From positions 1 through 34,157 of IMG/VR virus record IMGVR_UViG_3300017770_000065: DNA of 34,157 bases. One strand, given 5' to 3'. Below the pieces are notes generated by a model. It did not search any database and was not told the origin of the DNA. It worked only from the letters and a program-made list of their open reading frames with translations. Origin of the DNA: a virus. Its lineage: Duplodnaviria; Caudoviricetes. A program made the position numbers and the translations under genes. Shown here piece by piece: positions 6,011-10,882 of the stretch. Position 1 is the stretch's first letter, and each line of letters starts with the position of its first letter.

Positions 6011-6157
6011 ATGAATGATAAAACTCAGTTAAAAATTATAGAATTTGCAAGAAACATAGTGTGTGGAAAGGTAATGGATTCGCCAGAAGACATTCAATTT
6101 TATTTAAATTATAGAGTAGAAATAGAAGAAACTCTAAGAAAGTGGGCTGAAGATTAA
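6011..6157 (+). CDS. small hypothetical protein (48 aa), absent from the ORF track
   Basis: ATG 1 nt after the previous stop; MNDKTQLKIIEFARNIVCGKVMDSPEDIQFYLNYRVEIEETLRKWAED then TAA; fills the intergenic gap. Confidence 0.65.
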   Translation: MNDKTQLKIIEFARNIVCGKVMDSPEDIQFYLNYRVEIEETLRKWAED

Positions 6158-6172: not shown

Positions 6173-6895
6173 ATGAAGGCTGAAGAATTATATAAAGATA
6201 ATTTAAGGGACACTCATTGGTTGGGAAAGGTTGTTGATACTGCTGACCCTTTACTTGAGGGTAGATGTAGAGTAATGGTATATGGTAAGTTTGATAAAAT
6301 ACCAACTGAATCTATTCCGTGGGCAACATCTTCTAATAGCAATATGATAGGAACTTACTCTACCCCAAAGCTAGGAGATATTGTTTCTGTTAAATTTGAT
6401 AATGGAGACATTTACCACCCTGAATATACTTATACAATTAACAGCAATGATAGAAATACATTTAAAACAGAAATATTAGAAGCATTGGGCGCTGAGGAAG
6501 CCGTTAAAGCACAATCAATTGTATATGATGTTGATAATAAATTTAGAATATATTATGAACCAAATGAAGGTTTAATAGTTTCAATGGGTGATGGAATTAA
6601 AACAGAGCCTTTTATAAATGTAAAACAAACTGGTGAAATACATATCCACACCGATCAAGAAGGTAAGGTTGAAGTATTTACAGATGGAGACGTAGAAGTT
6701 AAAGGTAAAAAAGTTCATGTAAATAGTCCAAAGGTTGAGCTTGGTGAAATTGCACTTGAACAGGTAATTAAAGGAAATACTTTTCAAGCTTTATTTAACA
6801 CACATACTCACCTTGGAAATTTAGGAATGCCTACATCGCCTCCAACCGTACCTCTATCAGGAACAGAATTAAGTAAAATTAGTAAAACAGAATAA
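6173..6895 (+). CDS. baseplate central spike (gp5 N-terminal OB fold / gpV-like) with C-terminal HxH motif
   Basis: WLGKVVDTADPLLEGRCRVMVYG...IPWA...PKLGDIVSVKFDNGD is the gp5/VgrG OB-fold motif; beta-repeat region; FNTHTH at 6803-6811 resembles metal-binding spike tips; no lysozyme domain. Confidence 0.85.
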   Translation: MKAEELYKDNLRDTHWLGKVVDTADPLLEGRCRVMVYGKFDKIPTESIPWATSSNSNMIGTYSTPKLGDIVSVKFDNGDIYHPEYTYTINSNDRNTFKTEILEALGAEEAVKAQSIVYDVDNKFRIYYEPNEGLIVSMGDGIKTEPFINVKQTGEIHIHTDQEGKVEVFTDGDVEVKGKKVHVNSPKVELGEIALEQVIKGNTFQALFNTHTHLGNLGMPTSPPTVPLSGTELSKISKTE

Positions 6896-6897
6896 AA

Positions 6898-7422
6898 ATG
6901 GCATTAATAGATTTAGAATTAGAAGCAAGATTAAAACAAATATTTGGAAGTGTTATAAAAAGAACTGCACTTAGATTAAGAATAGAAGGAGGTGAAAGTA
7001 TTCTTAGAGATGATAAATTTCCACCTACCTCAACTAAAATAGATCATAAAGCTGATCAATTAATATCTCCACCTGCTGGTATATACAATGCTTTAAAAGA
7101 AGTAGATGAGTATGTTACTTTAAACAGACCTGCCCCTGGAGAATCTATTGATAAAATTAAGAAAGAAATGTGGAGAGAATTTTCAAGACAAATGTCAAAA
7201 GAACTTTCTGAAAATATAATAGATTGGCTTGAAAAAGATGTGATGCCAGATTTAGCTAAGGAAATTAACGATCAAATTAAGAGAGCTGACATTACAATTG
7301 ATGTTCATCCGGATGTTACTAGAGATATTATACCTGTAACACAGGCGACGCCAACTGGTCAACAACCTGCCGCTGATTTACCAGGTACTCCTATACTTCC
7401 GGCAGCAGTCAAGATAGAATAA
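6898..7422 (+). CDS. hypothetical protein, possibly spike/baseplate-associated
   Basis: 174 aa ORF starting 2 nt after the spike gene; Pro-rich C-terminus. Confidence 0.7.
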   Translation: MALIDLELEARLKQIFGSVIKRTALRLRIEGGESILRDDKFPPTSTKIDHKADQLISPPAGIYNALKEVDEYVTLNRPAPGESIDKIKKEMWREFSRQMSKELSENIIDWLEKDVMPDLAKEINDQIKRADITIDVHPDVTRDIIPVTQATPTGQQPAADLPGTPILPAAVKIE

Positions 7423-7429
7423 TTTAATA

Positions 7430-7438
7430 GATATATAA
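7430..7438 (+). promoter_or_regulatory. GATATATAA late-promoter-like motif upstream of the S1 gene
   Basis: Intergenic exact motif copy, 31 nt before the ATG at 7470. Confidence 0.6.
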
Positions 7439-7469
7439 TTCATAAGTTTTAACCTTTAAAAAATAAAAA

Positions 7470-8669
7470 ATGATAGAAAAACAAAATGCTGACTTTTTTG
7501 ATAAAGATGGCAATTTCGATTGGGATGGATATGAGTCAACATGTCCAAAAGTCTTAAGAACCCCAAACCCACACATAAAAGTAGTAAACGATAAGCATAA
7601 AGTATACAGTAGAGAGCCATATGCTCAGGACATGTATAATAAACTTGTAGGCCATATTGAAGAAAATGATATTATTACTCATATACAATATGGAAATGCT
7701 TATAATGGTAAAGTCTTTGGTATTACTGATATGACAGCAAGTATCGATATTGGTTATAGACAACTTGTTTATGTCAATTTAGAAAAAGAGGATGATGAAT
7801 TTAAAAACATGCAACTTGGAGATGAAGTTAGTGTTATTATTACATCATTAATGGAAGATGATAGAAAGCCTATAATGGGTAGTGTTAGTGAAGGTACTAA
7901 ACAGGCTACTTTCCAAGAGATGCTAAGTGCTATTGAAGAACAAGATACTGCATGGGTTGGTAAGGTTACTAGAATGCTGTCCGCTGCTGGTTATATGGTT
8001 AATATTAAAGGTATAGAGTGTTTTATGCCAGGCAGCCTTGCGGGTATTAATAAGTTACACGACTTTGAAAGTATTGTAGGGCAAGAGATGTATGTTGTAC
8101 CTGTTAGTTTTTCTAAAGAAAGAAAAATAATCGTTGTTTCCCATAGAGCATATCTTAAAACATTAATTCCGGATGCTATTGAAAAATTAAAAGAAATGGC
8201 TAGTGAATATATTATAGGAAATGTTACAGGTTCTGCTAAATATGGGGTTTTTTGTGAATTCTCACAATGTTTAACTGGTATGATTCATGTCAATGATTTA
8301 GATGGAGATACTTTAGCTAGACATAAAAATAGAGAAATTGAACCAGGTGAAGAAATTAAGTTTAAAGTAAAGGATATTATATCTAGCACTAAAATAACAC
8401 TAACTCAGCGAGATGATGTTGAAGTAAATCCTTGGTTAGAAATTAATAAAAAATTTAAAGTGCCTTCAGAGGTTGAAGCTACTGTAAAAACTTGTAAAGA
8501 CTATGGTTTATTTGTGGAGTTAGAAGAAGGAGTAGTTGGACTATTACATGTTAGTGAAATTGGCGAAGATAAAATAAAATCATATAAGCCTAAACAAACT
8601 ATTACTGTTTTAATTACTAAAATAGAAGAAGATACTAAAAAGATATTCTTAAAATTGCCTAAGGAATAA
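7470..8669 (+). CDS. rpsA: phage-encoded ribosomal protein S1 homolog (4 S1/OB domains)
   Basis: S1 repeats: GKVFGITDMTASIDIGY...LGDEVSV; GIECFMPGSLAG...IVGQEM...IVVSHRAYL; GNVTGSAKYGVFCEF..LTGMIHVNDL; NPW...DYGLFVELEEGVVGLLHVSEI. The N-terminal FDWDGYE resembles Bacteroidota S1. Confidence 0.85.
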   Translation: MIEKQNADFFDKDGNFDWDGYESTCPKVLRTPNPHIKVVNDKHKVYSREPYAQDMYNKLVGHIEENDIITHIQYGNAYNGKVFGITDMTASIDIGYRQLVYVNLEKEDDEFKNMQLGDEVSVIITSLMEDDRKPIMGSVSEGTKQATFQEMLSAIEEQDTAWVGKVTRMLSAAGYMVNIKGIECFMPGSLAGINKLHDFESIVGQEMYVVPVSFSKERKIIVVSHRAYLKTLIPDAIEKLKEMASEYIIGNVTGSAKYGVFCEFSQCLTGMIHVNDLDGDTLARHKNREIEPGEEIKFKVKDIISSTKITLTQRDDVEVNPWLEINKKFKVPSEVEATVKTCKDYGLFVELEEGVVGLLHVSEIGEDKIKSYKPKQTITVLITKIEEDTKKIFLKLPKE

Positions 8670-8679
8670 TTTAGGTAAT
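8654..8679 (+). other. 9-bp stem-loop spanning the S1 stop codon
   Basis: ATTGCCTAA (8654-8662) pairs with TTAGGTAAT (8671-8679) with one G-U pair; the 8-nt loop contains the TAA stop; no U-tract follows. Confidence 0.35.
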
Positions 8680-8720: not shown

Positions 8721-10034
8721 ATGCTAACGTATCAAATTACAAAACATAAAAGTAAAGAAGACATTCTACAAGACTCTCTTGTCGGAATAGAGTTTGAGTT
8801 CTATTCCGACAAAGAGCTTGAAGATATTAGAGGTGAAATTTCTACTTTATTAGGTAAAAAAATCAGATTAGAGGGTAAAGCACATAGTGACTTCGTTCCG
8901 ACTAAAGATGAGTATAAATTAGAACCTGATATGAGTGGAGGTAAAGGGCTTATAGAACTTATTACTGCTCCTATTCCATATAGTGTTGCAAGAAATACTA
9001 TAATAAAAGTATTAGGCTGGATTCAAGAAAACGGCTATACTACTTCAAAAAGTTCAATTCACTTAAATTTAAGTTTTGATCCTAAAAAAACAGGTAAAAG
9101 TAATCTTATTTCTAAGATGGATCCTCTTAAATTTATTTTAGGATTTAATGAGACTGAAGTCTATAAGTTATTTAGTAATAGGAAGGATAGTGTTTATGCA
9201 AAGTCTATAAAATGGATCATGCCTAAAATAGATCATAATTATTATGAAGGTCAAAATATAAATCCTCATGTGTTTCATTTTGCTGTTGAAAAATATTACG
9301 GTGTAAACTTTCAAAAATTACAACAAGGTTATTTAGAGTTTAGATATATTGGAGGTAAAGGGTATGAAAAGAAAACAACTAATATTTTATATTTATTAGA
9401 TCGTTTTATTTTACAAATGTGGGCAATTGCAAATCAAGAAAAATATACTGATTTAGACTTAATAGAGTTAAAAAGAATTCTTAATAGGAATCATAAGTTT
9501 ACTGAAATATTAAAAGATTGGAAAAGGTTAAAAGACTTTTATCCTGAAATTAATCTATATGTTGATCTAAAAGATGATGAAAAAATCATAGATATGTATT
9601 GGCCTAAAATATTAATGGATGTATTAAGATTAATTAGCCATGGGGGTTTAGTAAAAGGAGACATAAATTATGATAGTGATTTAAGTAGAGTGCAAGTGAG
9701 AAATGGAAGTTTACCATTTTGCTTTGAATTAAATAATTATGATTTTGTAGATTGTGAACTTTCTGGTTCTTTAAGTTTTTGTGATATTTTTAGATGTCAA
9801 ATAAAAACAGCAAGTTTAAAAAGATGTAATTTATATCAAGGTACAAGTGTTGAAGATTCTAAGGTAGAATCATGTTACACTAACCAAACATGTGAAGTTA
9901 AAAATAGTTATGTGTTTCAATGGGATTCTGTATTTAAAGGTAAAATGGTTGGAGGTATATTTAGACATGGTCAAATAAGTAAAGAGGCGGAATTTGATGG
10001 TACTGAAATAATAACAAGTAAAAAAATTAATTAA
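8721..10034 (+). CDS. putative amidoligase (COOH-NH2 ligase, glutamine-synthetase-like fold) with C-terminal beta-helix-like region
   Basis: VGIEFEF, ELITAP, SSIHLNLSF, KYYGVNF and LEFRYIGG match the phage amidoligase motif series (GxExE, E, HxH/N, EFR); the C-terminal ~100 aa has short periodic repeats. Confidence 0.8.
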   Translation: MLTYQITKHKSKEDILQDSLVGIEFEFYSDKELEDIRGEISTLLGKKIRLEGKAHSDFVPTKDEYKLEPDMSGGKGLIELITAPIPYSVARNTIIKVLGWIQENGYTTSKSSIHLNLSFDPKKTGKSNLISKMDPLKFILGFNETEVYKLFSNRKDSVYAKSIKWIMPKIDHNYYEGQNINPHVFHFAVEKYYGVNFQKLQQGYLEFRYIGGKGYEKKTTNILYLLDRFILQMWAIANQEKYTDLDLIELKRILNRNHKFTEILKDWKRLKDFYPEINLYVDLKDDEKIIDMYWPKILMDVLRLISHGGLVKGDINYDSDLSRVQVRNGSLPFCFELNNYDFVDCELSGSLSFCDIFRCQIKTASLKRCNLYQGTSVEDSKVESCYTNQTCEVKNSYVFQWDSVFKGKMVGGIFRHGQISKEAEFDGTEIITSKKIN

Positions 10035-10036
10035 AA

Positions 10037-10882
10037 ATGAGTGATATTAGAAGCGGCGATAATATAGATTTAAGTCAAGGTAGAGATTATGGTACTGATT
10101 GTTTAACTGAATTCTTAAATGAAATTGGTTCAGAAATAACAGGAGCATGTATGATACCTCTTAATTTGCCACAAGCTGAAATAATAAACGTTATAAAAAG
10201 AGCCGTTAAATGGTTCAGAAAAAATTACGAATATAGTCTTAGAGAAAACTATTTTCATGTACCTAATGGAGTTTTTAGTAGTCAAAGTTTTAAGACAACG
10301 AGAACTTTAAACTTTCCTAAAGAAAATGCAACGACAGGAGCAGGAGAAGTATTTTCAATATATGGAGTATATGATTTAGCATCTGGTTGGAATACAGGTG
10401 GTACTAGTTTAGATTTAAGATTTACTAGTGGTGCAGATTTTAATATTGAAAAAATGTTTTTTAGTAATACATTTGCTGGAACAGGAGCTGCTGAATCTGC
10501 AGAAGAACTTCAATATTATGTAATTAATCAAAGTTATTTTGATATGGCTCGTCAAATCCTAGAGAATCCTTTAAGTTTTAATTACTCACAATTAACAGGT
10601 CAGCTTAAATTTATGGGAGATACTCCAAAGGGAGATGTAATTATTGAGTGTTATGAAAGCATTGAGAACTGAGCATTATATAATGATGAAATATTTTTTA
10701 GATATGTTTCAGCTAAAGTAAAACAGGCAGTTGGTGCTAAATTAGGAGTCTTTAAATTCTCTTTACCAGGTGGCGTAGAGATTGATTATGATGGTATTAA
10801 ATCCATGGGAGATGAGGAAATGGAAAGAGTACTTGAAGAGATTAAAGGAGATGAAGGTGTAGATTGGATGATGCACTCATAA
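10037..10882 (+). CDS. neck protein (T4 gp13-like), 281 aa if the in-frame TGA at 10670-10672 is read through
   Basis: N-terminus EIINVIKRAVKWFRKNY is gp13-like. After the TGA the frame continues 69 codons (ALYNDEIFFRYVSAKVKQAVGAKLGVFKFSLPGGVEIDYDGIKSMGDEEMERVLEEIK...) to TAA at 10880-10882, matching the gp13 YND...K...G..L.KF..LPGG C-terminal motif. Confidence 0.8.

What the first reader, a model, noticed from the sequence alone, without database searches (positions are those of the whole stretch)
7430..8679. Phage-encoded four-domain ribosomal protein S1 in the baseplate module, with its own late-type motif
Seen: four S1 repeats in 399 aa, an N-terminal FDWDGYE motif and VVSH at the end of domain 2. 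Established: S1 domains 1-2 bind the 30S subunit and later domains bind A/U-rich mRNA leaders. Gram-negative S1 typically has six domains, FxW..YE and VVSH are Bacteroidota S1 features, and S1 homologs have been reported in huge phages. Inference: a shortened S1 that keeps the ribosome anchor could displace host S1 and redirect ribosomes to late structural mRNAs, which here lack Shine-Dalgarno sites.
Basis: partly seen in the sequence, partly recalled or inferred. Interest (0 to 1): 0.75.

Follow-up and report, generated by a model that had tools for sequence, protein, structure and literature searches.

The report
Jumbo-phage remodelled ribosomal protein S1
A large uncultured T4-like phage, likely infecting Flavobacteria-type bacteria, carries a real four-domain copy of ribosomal protein S1 among its tail genes that keeps the host-type ribosome-docking motifs and is predicted to sit on host ribosomes late in infection; phage S1 genes were reported in 2020, but this one appears to lack the usual third domain rather than being simply cut short.

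Summary
Observation confirmed. 7470-8669 encodes a 399-aa bS1 homologue with four OB domains, FDWDGYE and VVSH; GATATATA at 7430 behaves as a late promoter. The gene is under purifying selection and lies before the amidoligase-like gene in 51 of 51 viral loci. It belongs to one phage clade that includes the Lak and >600-kb phage S1s of the 2020 huge-phage paper's kind. This scan has already noted the family on other DNA at least eight times.

The residues that dock bS1 and bind RNA are kept, and relatives co-encode a Bacteroidia-type bS21, so ribosome binding in a Bacteroidia host is likely but untested. The Shine-Dalgarno argument fails: the hosts lack SD equally.

Three points I did not see in the papers or notes I read. 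The third domain is D4/D5-like, not D3. The S1 leader keeps a host-type initiation element that its neighbours lack. Some genes carry the promoter exactly 12 nt before ATG, which suggests leaderless mRNAs.

Best reading: a late translation booster on host 30S subunits (0.55). A selective switch remains possible (0.2). Verdict: new member of a known kind.

The parts
7430..7437 (+). GATATATA, putative T4-type (gp55) late promoter of the S1 gene
   Evidence: Before S1 in 34 of 36 distinct full-length loci. In relative G001, 29 of 43 copies lie within 60 nt upstream of a start, including the tail tube and prohead protease genes. G001 encodes a late sigma factor (phrog_234, E 2e-10). Promoter function is inferred.
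7450..7459 (+). Conserved leader element TAACCTTTAA followed by an A-run; host-type Bacteroidia translation-initiation feature
   Evidence: In 28 of 29 distinct S1 leaders, ending 9-12 nt before ATG, against 1 of 193 neighbour leaders (pattern chosen after seeing the S1 leaders). Positionally enriched in host leaders (10 of 170 vs 2 control; 10 of 139 vs 0) but not in phage G001 (5 of 173 vs 5). The leader is unstructured.
7470..8669 (+). bS1-like gene, 399 aa, four OB domains
   Evidence: dN/dS 0.06-0.13 against 9 relatives.
7515..7535 (+). FDWDGYE (residues 16-22), Bacteroidia-type N-terminal anchor motif
   Evidence: F16 and W18 invariant in 39 of 39 aligned homologues. The matching F. johnsoniae segment 11-20 contacts uS8 (PMC13000457, passage).
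7542..7619 (+). Phage-specific basic insert (residues 25-50) between the two anchor helices
   Evidence: FxW-to-D1 spacing is 73-77 aa in 7 phage proteins vs 50-52 in 13 Bacteroidia; net charge +4 or more in 34 of 39.
7683..7889 (+). Domain 1 (uS2-binding type); D93 and R97 correspond to E. coli D39 and K43
   Evidence: The phage profile picks cellular D1 in 5 of 6 test proteins. D93 in 36 of 39, R97 in 38 of 39. Contact residues from PMC10123108 (passages).
7941..8153 (+). Domain 2; keeps Y175 and F185 (E. coli F120, F130) and VVSH; phage signature PGSLAGxN; E. coli K117 not kept
   Evidence: N194 in 47 of 47 phage rows; K at the K117 column in 45 of 45 cellular rows but 6 of 47 phage rows.
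8199..8411 (+). Third domain, RNA-binding type (Y258, F261, H273, K308), D4/D5-like rather than D3
   Evidence: the RNA-binding residues Y205, F208, H219, R254 of E. coli are from PMC4176380 (passage).
8460..8657 (+). Fourth domain, RNA-binding type (Y345, F348, H360), D4/D5-like sequence with a shortened loop
8690..8697 (+). Second GATATATA, in front of the amidoligase-like gene, so S1 and its neighbour each have a motif
8721..10034 (+). Amidoligase-like gene, constant downstream neighbour (context; no functional link shown)
   Evidence: Follows S1 in 51 of 51 viral loci. PF12224 E 0.0024, under the cut-off.
6173..6895 (+). gp5-like baseplate hub (context); its promoter motif sits exactly 12 nt before ATG
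   Evidence: phrog_430 E 4e-12. Motif at -12 in 14 of 23 distinct homologous leaders.

Best explanation
This is a phage-encoded, four-domain derivative of ribosomal protein bS1 that is likely made late in infection, is predicted to dock on the 30S platform of a Bacteroidia host, and would raise translation of the phage's unstructured, A-rich late mRNAs. Shown: the gene, its domain make-up, the conserved anchor and RNA-binding residues, purifying selection, fixed position in the tail/neck block, a conserved upstream motif, and bS21 on the same contigs in relatives. Inferred steps: (1) a gp55-type sigma transcribes it from GATATATA; (2) its host-type leader lets normal host ribosomes translate it well; (3) the FxW helix (uS8) and the second helix plus D1 (uS2) anchor it where the loosely bound host bS1 sits, filling empty sites or competing; (4) two D4/D5-type domains capture single-stranded leaders and feed them into the mRNA channel, alongside phage bS21. 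Any preference for phage mRNA would come from abundance, lack of structure and the altered RNA-binding surface, not from the absence of SD.
For: Colinear bS1 homology and fold. Bacteroidia-specific FxW and VVSH; the matching host segment contacts uS8 (PMC13000457, passage). uS2-side D93/R97, OB2 Y175/F185 and RNA-face aromatics are kept in 36-39 of 39 homologues. Predicted complex of residues 1-160 with F. johnsoniae uS2 and uS8: weak support, score 0.60 vs best control 0.05; runs agree in at least 79% of contacts, partner pLDDT at least 68. That mark was reached by 116 of 157 solved and 2 of 215 mismatched pairs, but at 0.60 or under by only 18 of the 157 and by both mismatches, and like complexes are solved, so it may reflect likeness. 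dN/dS 0.06-0.13. bS21 found in 3 of 5 related records; the G001 copy matches only Bacteroidia bS21 structures and keeps the Tyr54 equivalent. Late sigma factor in G001. In F. johnsoniae, purified ribosomes hold sub-stoichiometric bS1 and added bS1 doubles initiation on an SD-less mRNA (PMC9976891, passages).
Against: No experiment exists, and no cultured phage in the 50,697-record collection gave a phage-type match. The protein is only about 25-31% identical to cellular RpsA and sits on a very long stem, so function may have shifted. The canonical D3 seems absent, and D1-D3 is the minimal functional core in E. coli (PMC3858243, passages). The conserved Trp after the His in the RNA-binding domains and K117 are lost. 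F[DN]W is missing in 7 of 42 phage loci (2 of these keep an F-W variant) and is present in only 23 of 77 full-length distant representatives. RNA-library contigs cover the gene but do not show transcription.
Confidence: 0.55

Rival explanations
1. Selective switch. The protein displaces host bS1 and, lacking D3 and some tail domains, makes ribosomes poor at structured or host-type leaders while leaderless and pure A-rich phage late mRNAs continue. This would give host shut-off and self-limiting expression.
For: In E. coli, anchor-only S1 fragments displace native S1, stop bulk translation and spare leaderless mRNA (PMC3296737, passages). In G001, 13 of 173 genes have the motif exactly at -12, against 1 of 170 and 0 of 139 in two host samples. 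T4 numbering, which I read off the P23 template and the A-12 contact in PMC7892883 (passages), puts the start at about the ATG. The S1 leader alone among its neighbours is host-type. D3 is absent and the D2 loop is remodelled.
Against: Both RNA-binding domains keep their RNA-face residues, unlike the dominant-negative fragments. Major late genes (tube, prohead protease, S1 itself) have the motif 27-40 nt upstream and so would carry leaders. Host and phage leaders have similar A-rich profiles. No start site has been mapped.
Confidence: 0.2
2. Off-ribosome RNA chaperone or cofactor, for example for a phage nuclease (as host S1 is for T4 RegB), for RNA polymerase recycling, or for protecting late mRNA.
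For: S1 has such roles (PMC3014915 and PMC10123108, passages). S1 domains 4 and 5 form the RegB-activating surface, and the phage pair is D4/D5-like. The 2020 paper left 'on or off the ribosome' open.
Against: The host-lineage-specific 30S anchor is invariant in 39 of 39 close homologues, and the N-terminal segment has the lowest or near-lowest pN of the five regions in 8 of 9 comparisons. No RegB was found in 5 related records, but that search had no positive control.
Confidence: 0.12
3. Counter-defence or rescue. The protein replaces host bS1 that is inactivated, degraded or locked in hibernating ribosomes during infection, and its divergence lets it escape the host target site.
For: The S1 gene and its upstream neighbour are exchanged between near-identical genomes (flank pS 0.05-0.16 vs 0.46-0.48 in L010 and L013), as host-interaction genes often are (inference). 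bS1 is part of a hibernating ribosome structure (6H4N title).
Against: No defence system aimed at bS1 was identified here, and strong purifying selection is seen rather than diversification.
Confidence: 0.08
4. Structural or packaged virion protein, co-opted into the baseplate or neck, or injected with the DNA.
For: Fixed position among hub, neck and wedge genes.
Against: Ribosome-anchor and RNA-face residues are what is conserved. It has its own promoter motif. In distant relatives it sits at other places in the late region (L055-L057, L062) or has no recognised structural neighbours (Lak, L054).
Confidence: 0.04

Closest known systems
'Possible rpS1' proteins of huge phages and Lak megaphages (Al-Shayeb et al. 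2020, PMC7162821; passages read)
   Same: Phage-encoded multi-S1-domain protein, genomes poor in SD sites, the same proposal of ribosome hijack. S1 genes of LR756500-LR756504, LR745206 and Lak genomes match, and the six fetched fall in the same clade as the window protein (SH-aLRT 100).
   Different: That paper could not confirm true rpS1 and, in the passages I saw, gave no anchor, domain-identity or promoter analysis. It mentions up to six domains, whereas 85 of 87 signature-bearing representatives here are 476 aa or shorter, and Lak-A2 has three domains, also under code 15.
Cellular bS1 (RpsA) of Bacteroidia, e.g. Flavobacterium johnsoniae (PDB 9zcd_A; PMC13000457)
   Same: N-terminal F[DN]W helix, second anchor helix, D1 and D2 in order, VVSH, RNA-face aromatics.
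   Different: Four domains against six (19 Flavobacteriales RpsA parsed are 581-721 aa); about 25-31% identity; 25-aa basic insert; PGSLAGxN in place of PGSQID; no D3-type domain; Trp and K117 lost; below the rpsA cut-off.
Phage-encoded bS21 of Bacteroidetes jumbo phages (Chen et al. 2022, PMC9723584; passages and part 2 of 6 read)
   Same: Large myoviruses of Bacteroidetes with a ribosomal initiation protein tied to late expression; relatives of this phage carry bS21 with the Tyr54 equivalent.
   Different: That paper's main text has no mention of S1. In G001 and G002 bS21 lies among DnaJ and PhoH genes, not in the terminase/portal block described there.
bS1 of jumbo cyanophage PhiMa05 (PMC13157829; passages)
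   Same: A phage genome annotated with bS1.
   Different: That copy groups with cellular (Vampirovibrionia) proteins in a ribosomal-protein gene set; this is an old, phage-only clade in a structural block.
Four-domain bS1 of Bacillota (e.g. L061)
   Same: Four S1 domains, about 400 aa.
   Different: Their third domain scores best as D3 (control), and they lack FxW and the phage signature.

Membership tests
Ribosomal protein bS1 (RpsA) | Tandem S1/OB domains as the whole protein, D1 and D2 first | tested here: met
Ribosomal protein bS1 (RpsA) | Score above the curated rpsA cut-off (TIGR00717, 577 bits) | tested here: not met
   145.5 bits. The cut-off is strict: only 2 of 14 control genomes passed.
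Ribosomal protein bS1 (RpsA) | uS2-anchor residues (N-terminal helix, D39, K43) | tested here: met
   D93 in 36 of 39, R97 in 38 of 39, helix 52-66. Correspondence of the helix aromatics to F5/F9 is by position only.
Ribosomal protein bS1 (RpsA) | Canonical domain 3 in third position | tested here: not met
   0 of 47 phage third domains score best with D3; in reverse 0 of 78 and 0 of 16 genomes; turn length 8 (39 of 41 parsed) vs 7 in D3 (76 of 78). Strong divergence or gene conversion could mimic loss.
Ribosomal protein bS1 (RpsA) | RNA-face residues (Y205, F208, H219, R254 equivalents) | tested here: met
   Y258 39, F261 39, H273 38, K308 38 of 39; Y345 38, F348 38, H360 38, K391 35 of 39.
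Ribosomal protein bS1 (RpsA) | Binds 30S and promotes initiation | not testable with these tools
   Only a weak structure prediction (0.60 vs control 0.05).
Bacteroidia-type bS1 | N-terminal F[DN]W motif and VVSH | tested here: met
Bacteroidia-type bS1 | Nests in or beside Bacteroidia RpsA in a tree | tested here: inconclusive
   Attachment differs between trees. AU rejects neither Bacteroidia (p 0.42) nor Pseudomonadota (p 0.33).
Bacteroidia-type bS1 | Six domains | tested here: not met
   Four domains.
Huge-phage 'possible rpS1' (Al-Shayeb 2020) | Multi-S1 protein in a large phage genome | tested here: met
   The window is a virus record, CheckV 14% complete; one clade with huge-phage and Lak S1.
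Huge-phage 'possible rpS1' (Al-Shayeb 2020) | Genome rarely uses SD sites | tested here: met
   1 of 24 in the window; 15 of 235 in G001.
Non-ribosomal S1-domain proteins (PNPase, Tex, RNase R, CvfB, GSP13, Rrp5) | S1 domains fused to other domains, or best match to these families | tested here: not met
   The top 11 NCBIfam hits are RpsA models, and the top structure hits are bS1.
T4-type gp55 late promoter | Octamer upstream of virion genes on the coding strand, with a late sigma in the genome | tested here: met
   The motif differs from TATAAATA at 1-2 positions and also precedes non-virion genes.
T4-type gp55 late promoter | Transcription starts there late in infection | not testable with these tools
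   Only assembled contigs were available.

The most novel reading that the evidence does not exclude
Jumbo phages of Bacteroidia build a specialised ribosome late in infection. A D3-less, remodelled bS1, translated first from a host-type leader, displaces host bS1 and with phage bS21 shifts initiation from host-type leaders to the phage's A-rich and leaderless late mRNAs, shutting off the host and its own synthesis.
Probability: 0.2. Interest if true: 0.8.

Novelty: new member of a known kind. Interest (0 to 1): 0.42.

Why it matters
Phage S1 genes were reported in 2020 but left unconfirmed as true bS1, and one survey of viral ribosomal proteins set the S1 domain aside as ambiguous (PMC6375957, passage). 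Here the gene is shown to be an old, conserved, phage-only clade with host-lineage docking motifs. Because F. johnsoniae ribosomes, bS1 assays and structures exist, the open question of whether a phage ribosomal protein changes mRNA choice can be tested without culturing the phage. A working S1 without a canonical D3 would also revise the minimal-S1 model drawn from E. coli.

Tried and rejected
SD absence as the basis of selectivity: rejected, because hosts lack SD equally.

A plain D1-D4 truncation: not supported. Which cellular domains the pair derive from is unresolved. The D6 profile wins for 28 of 45 fourth domains in one direction but rarely in the reverse test, and the single-domain tree has too few columns.

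Donor lineage by phylogeny: no power. The careful tree did not finish, so quick trees were used. Three rows with doubtful cropping (L087, L116, P0227) were dropped. The 30 '_rep' rows were classed as phage by signature and length, not by genomic context; 8 looked up gave no taxonomy. The 80 bacterial loci are the best 80 of 586 found in 1/64 of the collection.

Promoter-in-hairpin occlusion of the S1 start, a lead from note e1-5935944: no such hairpin here (MFE -4.2 kcal/mol, 197 of 200 shuffles fold as well).

RegB partner: 0 of 5 records, with no positive control. PHROGs has no family for this protein.

Expression: contigs from four seawater RNA-type libraries lie on the region, but they cannot show strand, start or level, and no silent control stretch was laid.

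Lak S1 truncated by TAG recoding: rejected. Neck-gene frameshift, my first guess: wrong, it is a point change. Upstream 174-aa gene: no Pfam, PHROG or Atlas hit.

Supplements: searches of 10 files of PMC7162821 and 2 files of PMC9723584 found no S1 terms. Even 'Shine' was not found, so the supplementary text on rpS1 was probably not among the readable files and may hold architecture details that I did not see.

Full report
Observation. The window is a 34-kb virus record that CheckV rates 14% complete, i.e. a piece of a roughly 240-kb genome (my arithmetic). It holds baseplate hub, neck, wedge, tail fibre and RuvC-like genes. ORF 7470-8669 encodes 399 aa that align in order with E. coli bS1 residues 21-346 (E 2e-37). 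The top 11 NCBIfam hits are RpsA models, all under their cut-offs. The AlphaFold model has N-terminal helices and four barrels (pLDDT 81.5), and Foldseek's best matches are ribosome-bound bS1.

Upstream motif. GATATATA at 7430 is not over-represented by count (8 vs 4.2; 7 of 100 shuffles reach 8). Its placing is non-random: all 8 are on the coding strand and 5-6 of 8 lie just upstream of starts, the top rank among 280 permutations of the same letters. It precedes S1 in 34 of 36 distinct full-length loci. In the 205-kb relative G001 (S1 93% identical), 29 of 43 copies lie within 60 nt of a start, including tail tube and prohead protease. That genome has T4-like portal, protease and capsid genes and a late sigma factor. 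I read it as a gp55-type late promoter; this is inferred. It also precedes non-virion genes, and the downstream amidoligase-like gene has its own copy.

Family. A word-indexed search gave 1507 proteins at E up to 0.001, a total that may include cellular RpsA; the best 120 are 53-96% identical. All 51 IMG/VR loci have the amidoligase-like gene next, and 50 of 51 also show the neck gene, the other ending first. GenBank matches include the 462-735-kb metagenomic huge phages and 15 Lak genomes; the other matches that I fetched were cellular rpsA in contaminated records. In a 100-row tree, 47 phage or phage-like rows, including Lak and the >600-kb phages, form one side of a branch (SH-aLRT 100). 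The stem is long and the attachment unstable; AU tests reject neither a Bacteroidia (p 0.42) nor a Pseudomonadota (p 0.33) sister. dN/dS is 0.06-0.13 against 9 relatives, and S1 with its upstream neighbour has been exchanged between otherwise near-identical genomes.

Host. F[DN]W is found in 14 of 15 Bacteroidia RpsA (the miss is a mis-started ORF) and 0 of 69 others, and in 17 of 19 parsed Flavobacteriales RpsA out of 20 fetched. In F. johnsoniae this segment contacts uS8 (PMC13000457, passage). bS21 occurs in 3 of 5 related records, and the G001 copy matches only Bacteroidia bS21 structures and keeps the Tyr54 equivalent. The A-peak in leaders is at -11 in both G001 and Chryseobacterium, against a flatter -14 to -11 in Bacteroides, which leans to Flavobacteriales. 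Contigs from seawater RNA-type libraries cover the region; this does not prove transcription.

Functional anatomy. E. coli contact residues are taken from PMC10123108 and PMC4176380 (passages). Their equivalents D93, R97, Y175, F185, Y258, F261, H273, K308, Y345, F348 and H360 are kept in 36-39 of 39 homologues. Differences from cells are systematic: a 25-aa basic insert between the anchor helices, N194 in 47 of 47 phage rows in a remodelled D2 loop, T269 in 47 of 47 where cells have Asp in 45 of 45, and loss of K117 and of the Trp after the His. A predicted complex of residues 1-160 with F. johnsoniae uS2 and uS8 gave weak support: 0.60 vs best control 0.05, contact agreement at least 79%, pLDDT at least 68. 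The mark was reached by 116 of 157 solved and 2 of 215 mismatched pairs, but at 0.60 or under by only 18 of the 157 and by both mismatches; like complexes are solved, so it may show likeness only.

Domain identity. The third domain is not D3-like. None of 47 phage third domains scores best with the cellular D3 profile. In reverse, D3 wins in 0 of 78 genomes and 0 of 16 further Flavobacteriales; D5 wins in 14 of 14 Bacteroidia and D4 in 47 of 64 others. The beta-turn has 8 residues in 39 of 41 parsed phage domains, like D4 and D5, against 7 in 76 of 78 D3. As a control, the third domains of two four-domain cellular S1 proteins pick D3. So an internal deletion or a conversion is at least as likely as a cut tail. 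Since D1-D3 is the minimal core in E. coli (PMC3858243, passages), activity cannot be assumed to equal the host's.

Leaders. SD-like sites are as rare in hosts as in the phage (7 of 173, 5 of 170, 7 of 139, crude ORF calls on 200-kb samples), in line with PMC3155529 and PMC9976891 (passages). Two other patterns emerged. First, 28 of 29 S1 leaders, from proteins 30-100% identical, carry an AAC-CTTTAA-type element ending 9-12 nt before ATG, against 1 of 193 neighbour leaders (post hoc pattern). It is positionally enriched in Bacteroidia host leaders but not in G001. Second, 13 of 173 G001 genes have the motif at exactly -12, against 1 of 309 host genes, and the spacing is kept before gp5 (14 of 23) and gp25 (13 of 26) in relatives. 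By T4 numbering (PMC7892883, passages) these would be leaderless mRNAs, which do not need S1 (PMC3296737, passages).

Mechanism. Most likely (0.55) the protein is made late, docks on host 30S subunits, where bS1 is loosely held and added bS1 stimulates SD-less initiation (PMC9976891), and raises translation of abundant unstructured late mRNAs. A selective switch (0.2), an off-ribosome cofactor (0.12), counter-defence (0.08) and a virion role (0.04) are the rivals. Every step after the sequence anatomy is inferred.

Known or new. PMC7162821 (passages) already reports phage rpS1, the link to SD-poor genomes and the hijack idea. My ten paper searches showed no paper devoted to this clade's anatomy or function, but the library lacks most subscription papers and the 2020 supplement text on rpS1 was probably unreadable. 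Earlier notes of this scan describe the same family on other genomes; in the lines shown they call it a shortened S1 and do not mention D3 loss, the host-type leader or leaderless mRNAs. Verdict: new member of a known kind, interest 0.42.

Noticed in passing
window 10037-10882 (stop at 10670-10672): The neck (gp13-like) gene stops at 211 aa through one base change to TGA; the near-identical locus L001 reads 281 aa. Probably an assembly or variant call.
   Followed up: yes
window 3171, 6161, 10890, 30334, 32888: Promoter-like octamer exactly 12 nt before ATG of the hub, gp5, gp25, 663-aa and 122-aa genes; candidate leaderless late mRNAs.
   Followed up: partly
window 6898-7422: 174-aa gene of no known family, highly variable (29-99% identity) and exchanged together with S1 or alone; an RNA-library contig also replaces this stretch.
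   Followed up: partly
window 8721-10034: Amidoligase-like gene fixed downstream of S1 in 51 of 51 viral loci and in the 462-kb record, but not in Lak or the >630-kb phages. The whole block is syntenic, so a functional link is not shown.
   Followed up: partly
window 6011-6157: Small 48-aa ORF, below my ORF cut-off, conserved between the 435-aa gene and gp5 in close relatives.
   Followed up: no
L145:1492-1683 (G001), L143:1492-1689 (G002): bS21 sits in a DnaJ-bS21-PhoH cluster about 18-24 kb from S1 in relatives.
   Followed up: partly
L054:7953-9062: Lak-A2 S1 has only three OB domains and a charged tail, also under code 15.
   Followed up: yes
L151:9133-9984, L153:12114-13646, L152:509-1117, L154:17532-17930: Relative G001 also encodes a short Ala-tRNA-synthetase-like protein, a Glu/Gln-tRNA synthetase, a sigma-70-type factor and a SET-domain protein.
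   Followed up: no
L058, L067, L090, L100, L101, L104, L118, L121 upstream of rpsA: Bacteroidales rpsA leaders share a motif close to ATAATGTCTAAC about 30-45 nt before the start; possible promoter or operator.
   Followed up: no
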